32,076 nucleotides of DNA from a virus (lineage: Duplodnaviria; Heunggongvirae; Uroviricota; Caudoviricetes), in IMG/VR virus record IMGVR_UViG_2802429236_000001, positions 1 through 32,076 of that record; one strand, written 5' to 3'. Below are positions 7,189-11,956 of this stretch, one piece after another; the first letter of the stretch is position 1; each line of letters starts with the position of its first letter. The notes beneath the pieces were generated by a model. That model was not told the DNA's origin. It saw nothing but the letters and a program-made list of their open reading frames with translations, and made no database searches. A program made the position numbers and the translations under genes.

Positions 7189-7456
7189 CCCGACAGCAAC
7201 TATAAATGCGCTGTTATGTGCTTGTGTTGTTATTACTCTGATGTTTTATCGTCGTGGTGATTCGCGGCATCGTCCTTGGGTTTCACGTTTAGCCTGGTTG
7301 ATTACTGTTACATACAGTGCTGTTCCGTTGGCCTATCTCTGTGGGATTTATCCTCATTCCTCATGGCCCATTATCGTGGCGAACACTATTTTTCTTTCCG
7401 TGCTGGTGGCCGTCAGAGGCAACGTTGCACGTCTGGTTGATCATCTGAGGCACTAA
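7175..7456 (+). CDS. Putative holin/antiholin-like membrane protein
   Basis: 93 aa, GTG start preceded by GGGGAGG. Two to three hydrophobic helices. Overlaps the upstream gene; its stop overlaps the endolysin ATG. Confidence 0.45.
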   Translation: MELNDPTATINALLCACVVITLMFYRRGDSRHRPWVSRLAWLITVTYSAVPLAYLCGIYPHSSWPIIVANTIFLSVLVAVRGNVARLVDHLRH

Positions 7457-8067
7457 TGAACCAACAATTATTTCAAAAGGCGGCTGGTATTAGCGCCGGG
7501 CTGGCTGCGCGCTGGTTTCCGCACATTGATGCGGCGATGAAGGAATTCGGCATTACAGCACCAGCGGATCAGGCAATGTTTATCGCTCAGGTAGGCCATG
7601 AGTCGATGGGGTTTAGCGCCGTAGTTGAAAATTTTAACTACACACCATCTGCGCTGGTGGCGACGTTCGGAAAGAGGATCACACAGCAGCAGGCTGATGC
7701 CCTTGGTAGAACATCCGGACATGCAGCTCGTCAGGATGCTATTGCCAATCTGGTGTATAGCAACCGACTGGGTAACAAAGCACCCGGTGATGGCTGGAAA
7801 TATCGTGGTAGAGGATTAATTCAAATCACTGGTCTCCGTAATTATTGCATCTGTGGCTACGCACTAAAACTCGACCTTGTTACCCAGCCTGAATTGCTGG
7901 AACAGGATGAATACGCCGCGCGCTCAGCTGCGTGGTTCTATGCTTCCCGCGGTTGCCTGCTTCATTCTGGCGACCTGGGACGCGTCACGCTGCTTATTAA
8001 TGGCGGTAGTAACGGTCTGGATAAACGCCGCGCGCTGTTTAACCTGGCGAAATCGGTGCTGGTGTGA
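7456..8067 (+). CDS. Endolysin, glycoside hydrolase family 19 (chitinase-like)
   Basis: 203 aa; QVGHESMGF...YRGRGLIQITGLRNY...INGG.NGLDKR resembles GH19 phage endolysins, recalled from memory. Confidence 0.75.
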   Translation: MNQQLFQKAAGISAGLAARWFPHIDAAMKEFGITAPADQAMFIAQVGHESMGFSAVVENFNYTPSALVATFGKRITQQQADALGRTSGHAARQDAIANLVYSNRLGNKAPGDGWKYRGRGLIQITGLRNYCICGYALKLDLVTQPELLEQDEYAARSAAWFYASRGCLLHSGDLGRVTLLINGGSNGLDKRRALFNLAKSVLV

Positions 8068-8182
8068 GGGACGGCGGCAAGTTATCCAAGCACCCATGTA
8101 ATTTAAAAAACTGGGTAGAAAGAGATGGACCGCAGGAAGAATGGCTGCTATTCTTCAGTTACTTTCGCTGGAGATGTATGGA

Positions 8183-9064
8183 ATGCTTAAAAAAGCGACA
8201 ATTAATATAAAAACTGATGAGATAAATCTCTATCAAGGAGACTGTCTTGAGTTGCTAACCATGATGGACGATTCTTCTGTAGATCTCATCGTTACTTCAC
8301 CACCGTATGCAGATCAACGAAAGAGGACTTATGGTGGCATTGCCCCTGACAAGTATGTTGACTGGTTTTCACCTATAGCGGAGCAACTGCTACGGGTTCT
8401 TAAGCCTTCAGGCTCCTTTGTGCTTAACATTAAAGAGAAGGTAGTGAATGGCGAAAGACATACATATGTTTTAGAGCTTATTCTTAAAATGCGAGAGCTG
8501 GGTTGGCTGTGGACAGAAGAATATATCTGGCATAAGAAGAATTCATTCCCTGGTAAATGGCCTAATAGATTCAGAGATTCTTGGGAACGCTGTCTGCACT
8601 TTACAAAAAACAGAAAGTTTGCAATGTACCAAGAAGCGGTTATGGTTCCTGTGGGGGACTGGAAGAATGAGAGGCTAAAAAAATTAAGCTCGCGGGACAT
8701 GATGAGGGATGAGTCGCGAGTTGGTAGTGGGTTCGGAAAGAACATTTCAAACTGGCAGGGAAGAGAAATGGCATACCCGACGAATGTGCTGCACATGGCA
8801 ACTGAATGTGGTAACAAAGGCCACAGTGCAGCATTCCCCGAAGTTCTTCCTGAATGGTTTATTCGTTTGTTTACAACAGAAGGCGATGTTGTTTTGGATC
8901 CGTTTGCAGGCTCAGGCACTACACTTGTGGCGGCATCTCGCCTGTCCAGAAAGTCAGTAGGTTTTGAATTGCTTGATGAACACTGCCAAGTAGCTAAAGA
9001 ACGACTTGGGCTGGAAAGAAAAAGGTTAACTAGCGTAGTAAGTTACAGCAAAAAAGCTGAATAG
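8183..9064 (+). CDS. Orphan beta-class DNA amino-methyltransferase (motif IV TSPPY, motif I DPFAGSGTT), possibly N4-cytosine type
   Basis: Motif order IV-then-I defines the beta class. SPPY rather than D/NPPY is more typical of N4C enzymes, which is an inference. Markedly AT-rich relative to flanking genes. Alternative starts at 8141 and 8174. Confidence 0.7.
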   Translation: MLKKATINIKTDEINLYQGDCLELLTMMDDSSVDLIVTSPPYADQRKRTYGGIAPDKYVDWFSPIAEQLLRVLKPSGSFVLNIKEKVVNGERHTYVLELILKMRELGWLWTEEYIWHKKNSFPGKWPNRFRDSWERCLHFTKNRKFAMYQEAVMVPVGDWKNERLKKLSSRDMMRDESRVGSGFGKNISNWQGREMAYPTNVLHMATECGNKGHSAAFPEVLPEWFIRLFTTEGDVVLDPFAGSGTTLVAASRLSRKSVGFELLDEHCQVAKERLGLERKRLTSVVSYSKKAE

Positions 9065-9116
9065 GTTTCTGGTTTATGGTAGTTTTCTCCTTGGTTAACC
9101 AAAGAAGGAAAATACA

Positions 9117-9398
9117 ATGTCAGGAACATGCATCATTGAAGGATGTGGTAGACATGCAGATAAAATTATCGGTGTGCGTCTGAGACGTGAACTGGATAAT
9201 TTATCTGCAATTTGGGCCCACAATACTAACGCTTATTTGTGTGATGAACATGCAGCTATGGGATTTGATGTAGAAGTAACATTTACCCCTCGGGATGACA
9301 AGACCATTAGAACAGTTGTAAGCAACGGTGATGGTGATCCAGTTGTTCGACTGAAAGCAATCACCAAACCTGTCAACCCAGATGGAACGGAAGACTGA
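9117..9398 (+). CDS. Small Cys/His-rich hypothetical protein (93 aa)
   Basis: RBS AAGGAAAA. Cys5, Cys10, His13, His35, Cys42, His45 could form a zinc site. Followed by a strong terminator. Co-located with the MTase. Confidence 0.5.
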   Translation: MSGTCIIEGCGRHADKIIGVRLRRELDNLSAIWAHNTNAYLCDEHAAMGFDVEVTFTPRDDKTIRTVVSNGDGDPVVRLKAITKPVNPDGTED

Positions 9399-9416
9399 GG
9401 TTAGTATATTTATTAT

Positions 9417-9441
9417 AAAACCGCCTTCGGGCGGTTTTTTT
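9417..9441 (+). terminator. Intrinsic terminator ending the MTase moron
   Basis: AAAACCGCC-ttcg-GGCGGTTTT followed by TTTTTA. Confidence 0.7.
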
Positions 9442-9467
9442 ATGCTTGCAAAAACTAAACTGCTGAG

Positions 9468-9745
9468 ATGGTAAAGATAATGGGAATCATAGAAATTATT
9501 GCTAGCGGTATTGTTGTGCTGGTTGCAGCCGCACTCAGCGTTTTTTACTGGCAATGTTCGTGGTTGTGGAAAAGTAGCAGAGAAAGCCAAACAGCAGCGC
9601 ACCGAAGAGAACGCAGTGGCGATCGTTGCAGCAATATCTGGGCTTCACTGCCGGGGCTGGTTATGGTCAGTTTGAGCATAAAGTTGACAGCCTGATTGCA
9701 AAATTCAAAGAAGCTGGCGGAACGGTCAGAGAGATTGAGGTATGA
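9468..9745 (+). pseudogene. Chimeric, frameshifted remnant: unknown TM-encoding 5' fragment joined to the 3' end of a lambda-type R endolysin gene
   Basis: From about 9621 the track frame reads DRCSNIWASLPG. After an apparent 1-nt deletion the next frame reads [27 protein letters not shown] and stops in the ATGA overlap with Rz. This matches the lambda R C-terminus as I recall it (...DRCSNIWASLPGAGYGQFEHKADSLIAKFKEAGGTVREIDV). The 5' part has no clear RBS. Confidence 0.5.
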
Positions 9746-10185
9746 GCAGAGTCACCGCGATTATCTCCGTTCTGGTTATCTGCATCATCGTCTGCCTGTC
9801 ATGGGCGGTTAATCATTACCGTGATAACGCCATCACCTACAAAAAGCAGCGCGATAAGGCCGCATCCATTATCGCTGACATGCAGAAACGTCAAAGTAAT
9901 GTAGCTGAACTCGATGCCAGATATACAAAGGAGCTTGCTGATGCTAACGCGACTATCGAAAGTCTTCGTGCTGATGTTTCTGCTGGTCGTAAGTGGCTGC
10001 ACGTCAAAGCAGTCTGTCCGGACATGCATAAAACCACCGCCGCCTCCGGCGTGGATGATGCTTCCAGCCCCAGACTTACTGACACCGCTCAACGGGATTA
10101 TTTCGTTCTCAGAGAGCGCATCGAAACCATAACTAACCAATTGAATGGCCTGCAAGAGTATGTGAGATCACAGTGTTCATATTAG
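9742..10185 (+). CDS. Rz: i-spanin Rz (lambda-type)
   Basis: 147 aa; [34 protein letters not shown]...[18 protein letters not shown] is near-identical to lambda Rz at both ends. Confidence 0.85.
9941..10132 (+). CDS. Rz1: o-spanin Rz1 (lipoprotein), embedded in the +1 frame of Rz
   Basis: Lipobox VVSGC, then TSKQSV...[10 protein letters not shown]...TPLNGIIS, matching lambda Rz1. Start chosen at the Met giving a 19-residue signal peptide; 9914 and 9974 are alternatives. Confidence 0.75.
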
Positions 10186-10223
10186 AAAAGTCTTATCATG
10201 AGATTTTTGTATATGGATGCATT

Positions 10224-10598
10224 ATGTCTCAATACGCGCGCGCCGCTTTAATCGCTTATCATTTGGTTGCTGATAGCTCAATGCCTCCTCGTGATGTATG
10301 GGATACAGCTGTCGCAGAGGTTACAGAAAGCGAATCGTCAAGAAAGAAGATATGCCCAAGGGCAACATTTCTCGCCCTAGCGGATAGCGGTTACCTCAAG
10401 AATGTAAAACCACTGCATGGGGAGAAAAAGGGCGGTAAGTTGTACCAAAGGGCAATTGAAGTTGCGAATCTGATTCTTGATTTACCCGGAATCAGTAAAG
10501 CTGAATTGGTTGATAAAACTGGTTACAAAGACAGGCAAGGGTCTTATGACCTGATTCTCGCTCTGTATCATCATGAGCAACTCCAGCGACCGGAATAA
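10224..10598 (+). CDS. Hypothetical protein (about 124 aa), accessory/moron candidate
   Basis: Open frame 10173..10598 in the track. No convincing RBS, so the start is uncertain. Lower GC than the core genes. No family recognised. Confidence 0.4.
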   Translation: MSQYARAALIAYHLVADSSMPPRDVWDTAVAEVTESESSRKKICPRATFLALADSGYLKNVKPLHGEKKGGKLYQRAIEVANLILDLPGISKAELVDKTGYKDRQGSYDLILALYHHEQLQRPE

Positions 10599-10715
10599 TT
10601 ATCCCGGCATCAGTGTCAAAAATAGGCAGTGATACGCTATTTTCCTGAAAATACTTTACTAACATTTTATGAGAATTATCCTAGTAAAGTGTTTATTTAA
10701 AAGGAGTTTGGGTTT

Positions 10716-10919
10716 ATGAAAATTCTCTGGGTCATCAGTCTTTTGTGTAGTGCTATTGGATTTATTGAAGGAATCCTCGGGGTTTTCGGTGCTCAGAGTG
10801 CTCCACAACAGGCTGCAGGTGCAGCAATGGGAGTAGCATGGGCAGTTATTCCATATTGTATTTGTCGTGCTATCCAACAATTGCGCCCTCGAGAAGTCAT
10901 TATTAAAAAGGAAGAATGA
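10716..10919 (+). CDS. Small two-helix membrane protein (67 aa), moron candidate
   Basis: Strong RBS AAAGGAG 8-9 nt upstream. Two hydrophobic helices. Flanked upstream by a 9-bp perfect inverted repeat (ACTTTACTA ... TAGTAAAGT, 10644-10681) and downstream by a hairpin plus T-run near 10951-10975. Confidence 0.5.
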   Translation: MKILWVISLLCSAIGFIEGILGVFGAQSAPQQAAGAAMGVAWAVIPYCICRAIQQLRPREVIIKKEE

Positions 10920-10984
10920 CCAGATCTTATCCGGTGTTTTTTCTGTCTAAGCCTCGCGTCGCGGGGCTTTTTATTGGAGCCAGC

Positions 10985-11335
10985 ATGCCACCACGAACCC
11001 CAAAAGCCTGCCGCGTTCGCGGCTGCCGCCAAACCACCACTGACCCGTCAGGCTACTGCGAAAGCCACAAAAGCGAAGGCTGGAAACAATACAAGCCAGG
11101 ACAATCCCGTCACCAGCGCGGCTACGGTTCGAAGTGGGATGTTATCCGCGCGCGCGTGCTGAAGCGTGACAAAGGCCTGTGTCAGTTGTGCCTGCGTGTC
11201 GGTGTGGTGCGTGAGGCGAAAACCGTTGACCACATCATCCCTAAAGCGCATGGCGGCACTGATGCAGACTGCAATCTGCAGAGCCTGTGCTGGCCGTGTC
11301 ATAAGACGAAGACGGCCCGTGAACGACTGAAGTGA
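10985..11335 (+). CDS. HNH endonuclease (packaging-associated, HK97 gp74-like position)
   Basis: 116 aa from the ATG with a GGAG RBS. CQLC...DHIIPKAHGGTDADCNLQSLCWPCHKTKT is an HNH motif. Sits directly upstream of the terminase genes. Confidence 0.75.
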   Translation: MPPRTPKACRVRGCRQTTTDPSGYCESHKSEGWKQYKPGQSRHQRGYGSKWDVIRARVLKRDKGLCQLCLRVGVVREAKTVDHIIPKAHGGTDADCNLQSLCWPCHKTKTARERLK

Positions 11336-11359
11336 TAATAACTCTCAACTATCTGCGGG

Positions 11360-11425
11360 GGAGGGGCGGGTCAAATCCCTGTGACCTGACGTCTTCCGGA
11401 CTGCCCGCCCCATCGTTTTTTTATA
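11360..11425. other. GC-rich dyad plus T-run between HNH and TerS; candidate cos region and/or terminator
   Basis: GGGGCGGG (11364-11371) and CCCGCCCC (11405-11412) are a perfect inverted repeat flanking 33 bp, followed by ATCGTTTTTTTA. The location matches where HK97-like phages carry cos. The exact cut site cannot be determined from sequence. Confidence 0.3.
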
Positions 11426-11461
11426 CCCGCGAAAAATGAAATTTAACCAGGAGTGCCGCAT

Positions 11462-11956
11462 ATGGCTGGAACGGCGGGGCGTTCCGGGCGTCGCCCCAAG
11501 CCAACGGCGCGCAAGGCGCTGGCCGGAAACCCCGGCAAGCGAGCCCTGAACAAAGATGAACCCGTTTTTACGCCCATCAAAGGTGTTGAGCCACCGGAGT
11601 GGTTCGCTGAAGAAGAGCTCCCTCTCGCCACGATCATGTGGCAACTGACAACCAAAGAACTCTGCGGTCAGGGCCTGCTGTGCGTGACTGACCTCGCAGT
11701 GCTTGAGCGGTGGTGCGTAGCCTATGAGTTCTGGCGACGTGCCGTGAAAAATATTGCCAGACAGGGCAACACCATCACCGGTGCAATGGGCGGCATGGTC
11801 AAAAATCCGGAGCTGACCGCCAAAAAAGAACAGGAGTCCGAGATGAGCAGTACGGGGGCAATGCTCGGACTCGACCCCAGCAGCCGCCAGCGTCTGATTG
11901 GCCTGGCGGGGCAGAAGAAAGCCACTAACCCGTTTCTGAAAATTATCGAATCATGA
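11462..11956 (+). CDS. Terminase small subunit (P27 family-like)
   Basis: 164 aa from the ATG after AGGAG. Basic N-terminus [22 protein letters not shown]. Overlaps the TerL start. Confidence 0.7.

What the first reader, a model, noticed from the sequence alone, without database searches (positions are those of the whole stretch)
10186..10984. Accessory hotspot between Rz/Rz1 and HNH/terminase: unknown 124-aa protein plus a 67-aa two-helix membrane protein with palindrome and terminator
This is the classical moron site of lambdoid phages (where lambda carries bor). Here it holds two lower-GC genes of unknown family. The second is a small membrane protein with a strong RBS, preceded by a perfect 9-bp inverted repeat (ACTTTACTA/TAGTAAAGT) that could be an operator or RNA stem, and followed by a hairpin plus T-run. 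A small hydrophobic protein beside a soluble partner could be a toxin/antitoxin-like, abortive-infection or lysogenic-conversion module, but nothing in the sequence identifies the function.
Basis: partly seen in the sequence, partly recalled or inferred. Interest (0 to 1): 0.5.

Follow-up and report, generated by a model that had tools for sequence, protein, structure and literature searches.

The report
Two independent accessory genes; one self-contained moron
Between the lysis and DNA-packaging genes of this E. coli prophage sit two unrelated add-on genes of unknown function, and the second, a tiny membrane protein, travels between phages as a compact unit with its own predicted promoter and terminator, which is a typical rather than surprising prophage feature.

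Summary
The window is an SfI/SfV-like lambdoid prophage of E. coli. In phage SfV the Rz1-to-HNH slot is empty, so this 800 bp is accessory DNA.

The two genes are catalogued but uncharacterised. The 124-aa protein is Pfam DUF6979 / PHROG 5039. The 67-aa protein is PHROG 12304.

They are not a pair. DUF6979 follows this Rz allele at a fixed 38-nt gap in many E. coli and Salmonella prophages that lack the small gene. The small gene occurs in dozens of Enterobacterales phages without an adjacent DUF6979.

The main result concerns the 67-aa gene. It lies in a ~325-bp cassette (about 10648-10972) whose homology to unrelated loci starts at a conserved sigma-70-like promoter (TTTACT-16 nt-TATCCT). 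It ends at a conserved intrinsic terminator. That is textbook moron architecture.

The 9-bp palindrome is lineage-specific. Its left arm is simply the -35 box.

The protein is a confidently predicted helical hairpin under strong purifying selection. It belongs to a family of more than 900 clusters spanning several phyla, always on mobile elements.

Function was not identified. An envelope-level role in the lysogen, such as superinfection exclusion, is the best guess. This is an ordinary kind of feature and of modest interest.

The parts
10186..10223 (+). 38-nt spacer between Rz and the DUF6979 gene. No promoter-like site was found on the + strand.
   Evidence: The same 38-nt gap (Rz stop to DUF6979 ATG) occurs in Salmonella, E. 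albertii and other E. coli prophages. The promoter scan found nothing on the + strand.
10224..10598 (+). Gene for a 124-aa soluble all-alpha protein, Pfam DUF6979 / PHROG 5039, function unknown.
   Evidence: Family matches: PF22399 E = 2e-27, 96 bits; phrog_5039 E = 2.5e-68. AF2 model: pLDDT 89.9, pTM 0.86, seven helices. No transmembrane segment, GRAVY -0.39. pN/pS 0.10-0.18 / 0.29-0.60. Cys44 is invariant across 40 distant members.
10545..10555 (.). Approximate recombination breakpoint inside the 3' end of the DUF6979 gene.
   Evidence: Homology to lambdoid phages 4A7 and mEp460, and to about 196 E. coli genomes that lack the small gene, stops at window 10550. The last 16 codons are a different allele.
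10648..10972 (+). Self-contained moron cassette: promoter-like element, ribosome-binding site, 67-aa ORF and intrinsic terminator.
   Evidence: In a 15-locus alignment with unrelated flanks, column identity rises from 0.4-0.5 to at least 0.8 at about 10648. It falls again after about 10972. G+C is 0.41.
10655..10682 (+). Predicted sigma-70 promoter: -35 TTTACT (10655-10660), 16-nt spacer, -10 TATCCT (10677-10682). The inferred transcription start is near 10689.
   Evidence: Present with a spacer of exactly 16 nt in 45 of 64 distinct upstream flanks. Conservation: -35 0.99, -10 0.96, spacer 0.71, upstream 0.60. It scores 8/12 to consensus, just under the 9/12 threshold of the scan. Promoter activity is inferred, not shown.
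10653..10690 (.). Lineage-specific 9-bp inverted repeat (10653-10661 / 10682-10690). The left arm overlaps the -35 box.
   Evidence: It is perfect only in the E. coli lineage. SfI has 8/9, two further close relatives 7/9, other genera 6/9 or fewer.
10701..10706 (+). Shine-Dalgarno AAGGAG, 9 nt before the ATG.
   Evidence: Read from the sequence. Conserved in the cassette consensus.
10716..10919 (+). Gene for a 67-aa helical-hairpin membrane protein (PHROG 12304), predicted to have both termini in the cytoplasm.
   Evidence: Family: phrog_12304 E = 2e-44. AF2 model: pLDDT 89.9, helices 2-25 and 29-56. Kyte-Doolittle means are 2.1 (residues 3-25) and 1.54 (33-53). Basic residues sit at both ends. 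Invariant residues are P30 Q31 A33 A36 P46 Y47. pN/pS 0.11-0.16 / 0.63-1.0.
10949..10977 (+). Intrinsic terminator: AAGCCTCGC-GUC-GCGGGGCUU followed by UUUAUU.
   Evidence: The same stem with varying loops follows the stop codon in almost all enterobacterial cassettes. In Rahnella, Ewingella, Kluyvera and Pseudomonas homologs a hairpin of different sequence plus a T-run occupies the same place.

Best explanation
The 800 bp holds two independent accessory units that landed in the lysis/packaging junction of a lambdoid prophage.

**Unit 1: the DUF6979 gene (10224-10598).** It is a small soluble all-alpha protein gene. It travels linked to this Rz allele at a fixed 38-nt gap. It has no promoter or terminator of its own, so it is probably read as part of the late transcript (inferred).

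**Unit 2: a ~325-bp moron cassette (about 10648-10972).** It has a sigma-70-type promoter (TTTACT-16 nt-TATCCT), a strong ribosome-binding site, a 67-aa ORF and an intrinsic terminator.

- In the lysogen the cassette would be transcribed on its own and stop at its terminator.
- During lytic growth, Q-modified polymerase would read through it into HNH/terminase, by analogy with lambda late transcription (inferred).
- The product inserts into the inner membrane as a helical hairpin with both ends in the cytoplasm. An invariant S/A-P-Q-Q turn faces the periplasm, and helix 2 has an Ala/Gly-rich face suited to tight helix packing.
- Most likely it changes a property of the lysogen's envelope. The single most likely role is blocking genome entry of superinfecting phages, as the HK97 gp15 moron protein does.

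**Shown here:** gene reality, cassette boundaries, conservation of the promoter-like and terminator elements, independence of the two genes, and hairpin architecture.

**Inferred:** promoter activity, expression in the lysogen, topology, and the exclusion function. I put the exclusion function at about 0.3 on its own.
For: **The slot is accessory.** It is empty in SfV. Other cargo fills it elsewhere.

**Cassette boundaries are sharp** in 15 loci with unrelated flanks.

**The promoter-like element is conserved.**
- 45 of 64 distinct flanks keep TTTACT-N16-TAT(C/x)xT with an invariant spacer length.
- The hexamers are 0.96-0.99 conserved against 0.71 for the spacer.

**The terminator is conserved** in structure, including in cassettes where its sequence is replaced.

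**G+C** of the cassette is 0.41 against 0.59 for the downstream genes.

**The cassette sits next to at least two Pfam-confirmed terminase types, plus a third ORF size class**, and different lysis cassettes. In Edwardsiella phage Edno5 it sits in the tail module. Homologs also sit in primase/integrase/resolvase islands.

**The protein is real and constrained.** Purifying selection is strong, the hairpin model is confident, and the hydropathy and charge distribution fit a membrane hairpin.

**The two genes are independent**.

**Precedent.** The moron definition and HK97 gp15, a small inner-membrane superinfection-exclusion protein, are described in PMC3594210.

**Context of distant homologs.** Their neighbours hit PADLOC candidate defence models PDC-S52, PDC-M35A/LmuA and PDC-S48.
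Against: - No expression data were available. The promoter matches only 8 of 12 consensus positions and was not called by the consensus scan.
- There is no sequence or profile link to any known superinfection-exclusion, defence, holin or toxin family.
- The defence-island association rests on two loci only.
- The constant position right after lysis genes in lambdoid phages could reflect a lysis-related role rather than an insertion hotspot.
- Helix 2 is only moderately hydrophobic (mean 1.54), so the topology is not proven.
Confidence: 0.55

Rival explanations
1. The 67-aa protein is a late lysis accessory factor, such as a holin- or antiholin-like regulator or a membrane partner of the spanins. 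On this reading it is expressed with the late operon and tunes lysis timing.
For: - In dozens of lambdoid prophages it is the gene right after the spanin and before packaging.
- Its size, two-helix hairpin, small-residue helix face and charged C-terminal tail resemble class II holins and pinholins.
- One distant member gave a marginal Phage_holin_5_2 hit, E = 0.057.
Against: - It has its own conserved promoter-like element and terminator.
- Homologs occur away from lysis genes: in a tail module, in a primase island, and in integrase/resolvase islands of other phyla.
- SfV and most relatives lyse without it.
- There is no significant match to any holin family in Pfam or PHROGs.
Confidence: 0.12
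2. The cassette is a lysogenic-conversion moron, but with a non-phage-related benefit. Examples would be modulating a transporter, stress tolerance or membrane homeostasis, as many small enterobacterial membrane proteins do.
For: - The architectural evidence is the same as for the best explanation.
- The family is very broad, with at least 903 clusters across Proteobacteria, Bacteroidota and Acidobacteriota.
- In several non-lambdoid loci it is followed by a gene whose translated N-terminus reads, by eye, as a secretion signal or lipoprotein signal, which hints at an envelope function.
Against: Nothing specific argues against it. It is not distinguishable from exclusion with the data at hand. 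All contexts seen are mobile elements rather than core genome.
Confidence: 0.25
3. DUF6979 and the 67-aa protein form a two-gene toxin/antitoxin-like or abortive-infection module, with a membrane toxin and a soluble partner.
For: - The two genes are adjacent and co-oriented in the E. coli/Shigella SfI-like lineage: 17 of 80 viral loci and 52 E. coli genomes.
- A small hydrophobic protein sits next to a soluble one.
- The recombination patch starting at about 10550 carries the 3' end of another DUF6979 allele together with the cassette. The donor therefore probably also had them adjacent.
Against: - The genes occur separately far more often than together.
- They are separated by 117 nt containing the cassette's own promoter-like element.
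- Neither protein matches any PADLOC model.
- In other phages DUF6979 sits between Q and the holin or in a tail module, without the small gene.
Confidence: 0.04
4. One or both ORFs are decaying, non-functional remnants carried along by recombination.
For: The window does hold such a remnant nearby: a frameshifted 3' end of a GH24 endolysin at 9620-9745. In E. albertii, DUF6979 also persists inside a degraded prophage.
Against: - Both ORFs are intact and under purifying selection.
- Both are conserved to 52-65% protein identity across genera and much further by profile.
- Both give confident structure predictions.
Confidence: 0.03

Closest known systems
HK97 gene 15 moron (gp15, inner-membrane superinfection-exclusion protein; PMC3594210)
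   Same: A small inner-membrane protein gene inserted into a late operon of a lambdoid phage. It has its own promoter and terminator and deviant G+C, and it has homologs outside phages.
   Different: gp15 lies in the tail operon and is YebO-like with a different sequence. There is no sequence relation (PHROG and Pfam searches). Exclusion is not tested for the 67-aa protein.
Lambda bor / lom and other morons at the right end of lambdoid genomes
   Same: The same genome slot (after Rz, before cos/terminase) used for accessory, prophage-expressed envelope proteins.
   Different: By my recollection, bor is a lipoprotein gene on the opposite strand. The 67-aa protein shows no lipobox on reading the sequence, and is co-oriented with the late operon.
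Pinholin S21-68 and class II holins
   Same: About 67-70 aa, two transmembrane helices, a small-residue helix face, a charged C-terminal tail, and proximity to lysis genes.
   Different: No family match. The gene is a separate transcription unit downstream of the spanin. It also occurs away from lysis genes. The phage already has holin genes upstream.
Pfam PF22399 (DUF6979) / PHROG 5039
   Same: The 124-aa protein is a full-length member (96 bits against a cutoff of 27).
   Different: The family itself has no assigned function, no solved structure and no detectable fold relative.
Pfam PF18895 T4SS_pilin (VirB2-like two-helix pilins)
   Same: Sub-threshold profile similarity in 9 of 15 family members (best E = 3e-4). 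Both are two-helix hydrophobic hairpins with an Ala-rich region.
   Different: The window protein scores 13.9 bits against a cutoff of 26.6. There is no type IV secretion context in any locus examined. The similarity may be compositional.
Type I toxins / small membrane toxins of toxin-antitoxin systems
   Same: A small hydrophobic protein beside another small gene, with an inverted repeat in the leader.
   Different: Two helices rather than one. There is no conserved partner, and the inverted repeat is not conserved. No antisense RNA family was found.

Membership tests
Pfam DUF6979 (PF22399) | hmmscan score above the curated gathering cutoff over the whole domain | tested here: met
   96.1 bits against a cutoff of 27, covering residues 1-120 of 124 and model positions 1-126 of 127. 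RefSeq annotates the same gene as a DUF6979 family protein.
PHROG 12304 (67-aa protein) and PHROG 5039 (124-aa protein) | Full-length profile match | tested here: met
   phrog_12304 E = 2.1e-44 over positions 1-67 of 67. phrog_5039 E = 2.5e-68 over positions 1-124 of 124. Both are in the 'unknown function' category.
Moron (Juhala/Hendrix; as summarised in PMC3594210) | Extra DNA present in one phage and absent at the same position in close relatives | tested here: met
   SfV has 27 nt between Rz1 and HNH. The cassette is in only 52 of 5426 E. coli genomes. The cassette edges are sharp.
Moron (Juhala/Hendrix; as summarised in PMC3594210) | Own promoter upstream of the gene | tested here: inconclusive
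   TTTACT-16 nt-TATCCT is conserved in 45 of 64 distinct flanks, with hexamers far more conserved than the spacer. It matches only 8 of 12 consensus positions and there is no transcript evidence.
Moron (Juhala/Hendrix; as summarised in PMC3594210) | Own factor-independent terminator downstream | tested here: met
   The hairpin plus T-run at 10949-10977 is conserved or functionally replaced in homologous cassettes. This is computational evidence only.
Moron (Juhala/Hendrix; as summarised in PMC3594210) | Base composition different from the surrounding genes | tested here: met
   Cassette G+C 0.41 and intergenic 0.32, against HNH 0.59, TerS 0.59 and the whole window 0.52.
Moron (Juhala/Hendrix; as summarised in PMC3594210) | Expression from the repressed prophage | not testable with these tools
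   This needs RNA-seq, 5' RACE or a reporter fusion in a lysogen.
Toxin-antitoxin / two-gene abortive-infection module | The two genes co-occur as a conserved pair | tested here: not met
   DUF6979 occurs without the small gene in 196 E. coli genomes, in Salmonella and in E. albertii. The small gene occurs without an adjacent DUF6979 in 63 of 80 viral loci.
Toxin-antitoxin / two-gene abortive-infection module | Toxicity of one product, neutralised by the other | not testable with these tools
   This needs induced-expression experiments.
Holin / pinholin | Membership of a described holin family by profile | tested here: not met
   No holin family in Pfam or PHROGs matches the window protein. 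There is one marginal hit in one distant member, E = 0.057.
Holin / pinholin | Part of the lysis cassette transcription unit, next to the endolysin | tested here: not met
   The gene lies after the spanin and DUF6979, behind its own promoter-like element. Homologs also occur outside lysis cassettes.
T4SS pilin (PF18895) | Score above the gathering cutoff, and a type IV secretion gene context | tested here: not met
   13.9 bits against a cutoff of 26.6. No type IV secretion genes were seen in any locus examined.
Known anti-phage defence systems (PADLOC-DB 2.0) | Profile match to a defence-system component | tested here: not met
   DUF6979 has no match. The 67-aa protein has only PycC at E = 0.026, which is not significant.

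The most novel reading that the evidence does not exclude
The 67-aa protein would represent a large, phylum-spanning, so far unnamed family of two-helix membrane proteins. The family has at least 903 clusters, no Pfam model, and invariant APQ-AA...PY motifs. Some members carry an N-terminal zinc ribbon. On this reading mobile elements carry the family as a stand-alone envelope-level anti-phage (superinfection-exclusion or defence) factor. The enterobacterial version would move between prophages as a 325-bp promoter-gene-terminator cassette.
Probability: 0.3. Interest if true: 0.55.

Novelty: new member of a known kind. Interest (0 to 1): 0.3.

Why it matters
This is mainly a clean, well-delimited example of a moron. 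It is a 325-bp promoter-gene-terminator cassette with sharp edges, seen in at least 45 different flanking contexts.

It gives a concrete and cheap experiment. Express one 67-aa protein and test phage exclusion or envelope phenotypes. The protein belongs to a very widespread small-membrane-protein family that has no Pfam model and no known role.

It also corrects the tempting reading that two adjacent small genes form a toxin/antitoxin-like pair. For annotation, the small gene is missing from the SfI GenBank and RefSeq records.

Tried and rejected
**Function by profile.** Searches of Pfam, PHROGs, NCBIfam and PADLOC with both proteins, and with 15 diverse members of the small-protein family, gave only 'unknown function' families and sub-threshold hits (T4SS_pilin, Rv2732c family, PycC).

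**Function by solved structures.** Four PDB sequence/profile searches gave nothing significant.

**Function by fold, for DUF6979.**
- Foldseek against PDB: best E = 0.9.
- BFVD: best E = 0.65.
- The AlphaFold-database library was unavailable.
- No fold search was run on the 67-aa hairpin, because helical hairpins match non-specifically.

**Domain fusions of DUF6979.** Ten longer proteins showed no informative partner domain.

**Rfam.** The region 9000-11600 has no RNA family near threshold.

**Literature.** Nothing was found on DUF6979, PF22399, the two PHROGs or the RefSeq accessions. The SfI genome paper does not discuss these ORFs.

**Palindrome as operator or RNA stem.** Rejected because the right arm varies without compensation. 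The left arm would also lie upstream of the predicted transcription start.

**Other rejected readings.**
- The hairpin at the DUF6979 stop (10590-10607) is not a terminator: -5.1 kcal/mol, z = -0.6, no T-run.
- The antisense ORF 10659-10880 is an artefact, since conservation follows the + frame.

**Neighbourhoods of distant homologs.** They carry varied mobile-element cargo (HIRAN, DUF6988, DUF2513, resolvase, candidate defence models) but no constant partner.
Full report
**Observation**

- The 124-aa ORF starts at ATG 10224 and ends at 10598. It lies in frame inside a longer GTG ORF.
- The 67-aa ORF is 10716-10919, with AAGGAG nine nt upstream.
- The perfect 9-bp inverted repeat is 10653-10661 / 10682-10690, or 13 nt with one mismatch.
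- A 9-pair G+C-rich hairpin at 10949-10969 is followed by a T-run. It folds at -15 kcal/mol, z = -2.5.
- G+C drops to 0.46 / 0.32 / 0.44 across gene, spacer and gene, against 0.59 in HNH and TerS.

Both ORFs are real genes.
- pN/pS against diverged homologs is 0.11-0.16 / 0.63-1.0 for the small ORF and 0.10-0.18 / 0.29-0.60 for the larger one.
- Both give confident AlphaFold models with pLDDT 89.9 each.

**Where this is**

The window is an SfI/SfV-like lambdoid prophage of E. coli.
- 10100-11100 is 97.7% identical to Shigella phage SfI and 99.5% identical to many E. coli chromosomes.
- The order is Rz/Rz1, 124-aa gene, 67-aa gene, HNH, P27-type TerS, TerL.
- In SfV, which shares the packaging module, Rz1 and HNH are 27 nt apart. 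The 800 bp is therefore accessory.
- Related prophages fill the same slot with other small genes, a KilA-N gene or a glycosyltransferase-like gene.

The 'moron hotspot' reading is correct.

**The 124-aa gene**

It is a full-length member of Pfam DUF6979 (96 bits, cutoff 27) and PHROG 5039. 'Unknown family' is therefore not quite right; it is a known family of unknown function.
- The family has 517 representative clusters at E <= 0.001. Most are stand-alone proteins of 125-135 aa, with an invariant Cys-Pro in a KKGCPR-AFLGLC motif.
- The model is a seven-helix soluble protein.
- Fusion proteins were uninformative.

In E. coli, Salmonella and E. albertii it follows this type of Rz at exactly the same 38-nt gap. 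This holds whatever comes next.

In other phages it sits elsewhere: directly after a Q-like antiterminator and before the holin, or in a tail module.

I found no promoter-like or terminator-like element of its own. It is most simply a passenger of the late, or in those other phages the delayed-early, transcript.

**The 67-aa gene**

It is PHROG 12304. It is unannotated in SfI and is a 'hypothetical protein' in RefSeq.
- A profile search found at least 903 clusters, none with a Pfam domain or a functional name.
- Members occur in Enterobacterales, Pseudomonas, Xanthomonadales (some with an N-terminal zinc ribbon), Bacteroidota, Caulobacteraceae and Acidobacteriota.
- Invariant residues are P30, Q31, A33, A36, P46 and Y47.
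- The model is a helical hairpin with helices 2-25 and 29-56.
- Helix 1 is strongly hydrophobic and helix 2 is Ala/Gly-rich and moderately so.
- Basic residues sit at both termini. This suggests that both ends are cytoplasmic and that the conserved S/A-P-Q-Q turn is periplasmic (inference).

**The key result: a self-contained cassette**

I compared 64 distinct flanks of this gene, taken from prophages, viral contigs and genomes.
- Homology between otherwise unrelated loci begins about 62 nt before the ATG, at GCTTTACTAAA.
- It ends at the T-run of a hairpin about 25 nt after the stop codon.
- In a 15-locus alignment, column identity jumps from 0.4-0.5 to at least 0.8 at window ~10648. It falls again after ~10972.

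The 5' block is TTTACT, exactly 16 nt, then TATCCT.
- It is present in 45 of the 64 flanks, always with a 16-nt spacer.
- The hexamers are 0.99 and 0.96 conserved, against 0.71 for the spacer and 0.60 upstream.
- That is the pattern expected of a sigma-70 promoter rather than of generic sequence conservation.

The 3' block is the stem AGCCTCGC/GCGGGGCT with variable loops. In Rahnella, Ewingella, Kluyvera and Pseudomonas homologs a hairpin of different sequence plus a T-run occupies the same place.

Promoter, ribosome-binding site, ORF, terminator and deviant G+C are the defining layout of a moron (PMC3594210).

The cassette sits next to at least two Pfam-confirmed terminase types, plus a third ORF size class, and next to different lysis cassettes. 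In Edwardsiella phage Edno5 it follows the tape-measure/lytic tail protein. In Morganella it lies in a primase-bearing island.

**The palindrome**

- Its left arm is the -35 box plus flanking bases, which explains why that arm is conserved.
- The right arm is not conserved. It pairs 9/9 in 2 of 45 distinct flanks, 8/9 in SfI, 7/9 in two further close relatives and 6/9 or fewer in other genera, with no compensating changes.
- By chance such a repeat appears in about 3% of random 117-mers of this composition.
- If transcription starts near 10689, the left arm is not in the cassette's own mRNA.

I therefore do not regard it as a conserved operator or RNA stem. A lineage-specific regulatory site cannot be excluded.

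**Are the two genes a module?**

No.
- DUF6979 is in 248 of 5426 complete E. coli genomes. The cassette is in 52.
- In the other ~196 genomes, homology stops at window 10550 and different genes follow.
- Of 80 viral loci with the small gene, 17 (the E. coli/Shigella lineage) have DUF6979 next to it and 63 do not.
- Neither protein matches a PADLOC model.

The toxin/antitoxin-like or abortive-infection pair reading is disfavoured.

**Mechanism**

Best explanation: two independent accessory units.
- The small gene is an autonomous moron, transcribed from its own promoter in the lysogen and stopped by its own terminator.
- Q-modified polymerase would read through it during lytic growth (inferred from lambda biology).
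- Its product is an inner-membrane hairpin that most likely alters the lysogen's envelope. Superinfection exclusion of the HK97 gp15 type is the single most likely role. I put that role at about 0.3.
- Weak support comes from mobile-element-only contexts and from candidate defence genes next to two distant homologs.

Rivals:
- another lysogenic-conversion function at the membrane (0.25);
- a lysis accessory or holin-like role (0.12), argued against by the separate transcription unit and the non-lysis contexts;
- a two-gene module (0.04);
- a non-functional remnant (0.03), refuted by selection and conservation.

**Comparison and novelty**

This is a new, well-delimited member of a known kind, a moron in a known hotspot. 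It encodes proteins from catalogued but uncharacterised families. It is not a member of any holin, pilin, toxin or defence family tested. It would matter mainly as an easily testable entry point into a very widespread unnamed small-membrane-protein family.

Noticed in passing
window 9620-9745: A frameshifted 3' remnant of a lambda-R-type (GH24) endolysin gene lies directly upstream of Rz. It is 93% identical to the end of the intact 158-aa endolysin in related prophages (...[40 protein letters not shown]). The upstream part of the lysis cassette was evidently replaced.
   Followed up: yes
window 7456-9440: A GH19 (chitinase-like) endolysin at 7456-8067 is followed by three more elements. They are an N6/N4 DNA methyltransferase gene (8141-9064), a Cys-rich 93-aa ORF with no family match (9117-9398) and a strong terminator-like hairpin (9417-9438). 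The methyltransferase and the 93-aa ORF separate the endolysin from the spanin gene Rz, and this block abuts the endolysin remnant. The same arrangement is in IMG/VR contigs L047 and L053.
   Followed up: partly
L019 3797-6003 (Dokdonella fugitiva); also L028 (Tahibacter): Distant homologs of the 67-aa protein carry an N-terminal CxxC...CxxC zinc-ribbon extension. In L019 the gene is followed by a HIRAN-domain gene. After that come genes matching PADLOC candidate defence models PDC-S52 (E = 5e-19) and PDC-M35A/LmuA, with a P4-type-looking integrase (read from the ORF sequence, not annotated) nearby.
   Followed up: partly
L010 302-3035 versus L011 2379-3035: Two near-identical Enterobacter-lignolyticus-type prophages differ in the slot between Q and the holin. 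One has an S-type pyocin/colicin DNase plus its immunity gene. The other has a DUF6979 gene followed by the same immunity gene, which is then an orphan.
   Followed up: no
L004-L007 5001-5560 (Morganella); L017, L119 (Pantoea-like); L020, L021 (Buttiauxella): Outside lambdoid phages the small gene is immediately followed, or overlapped by 4 nt, by a gene for a signal-peptide protein or lipoprotein with no Pfam match. Two of these downstream proteins (L017, L119) are homologous to each other. This may be a two-gene envelope module.
   Followed up: partly
NC_027339.1 / JX509734.1 (phage SfI) 37695-37895: The 67-aa gene is 100% conserved at the protein level in phage SfI but is not annotated in either the GenBank or the RefSeq record.
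   Followed up: yes
L038-L041 4800-5387 (E. albertii, next to icd): An intact DUF6979 gene persists beside a 44-54-aa fragment of Rz in a heavily degraded prophage near icd, close to an NleG effector gene. The protein is listed in 224 blocks of the collection. This hints that the gene may be kept for the host's benefit.
   Followed up: no
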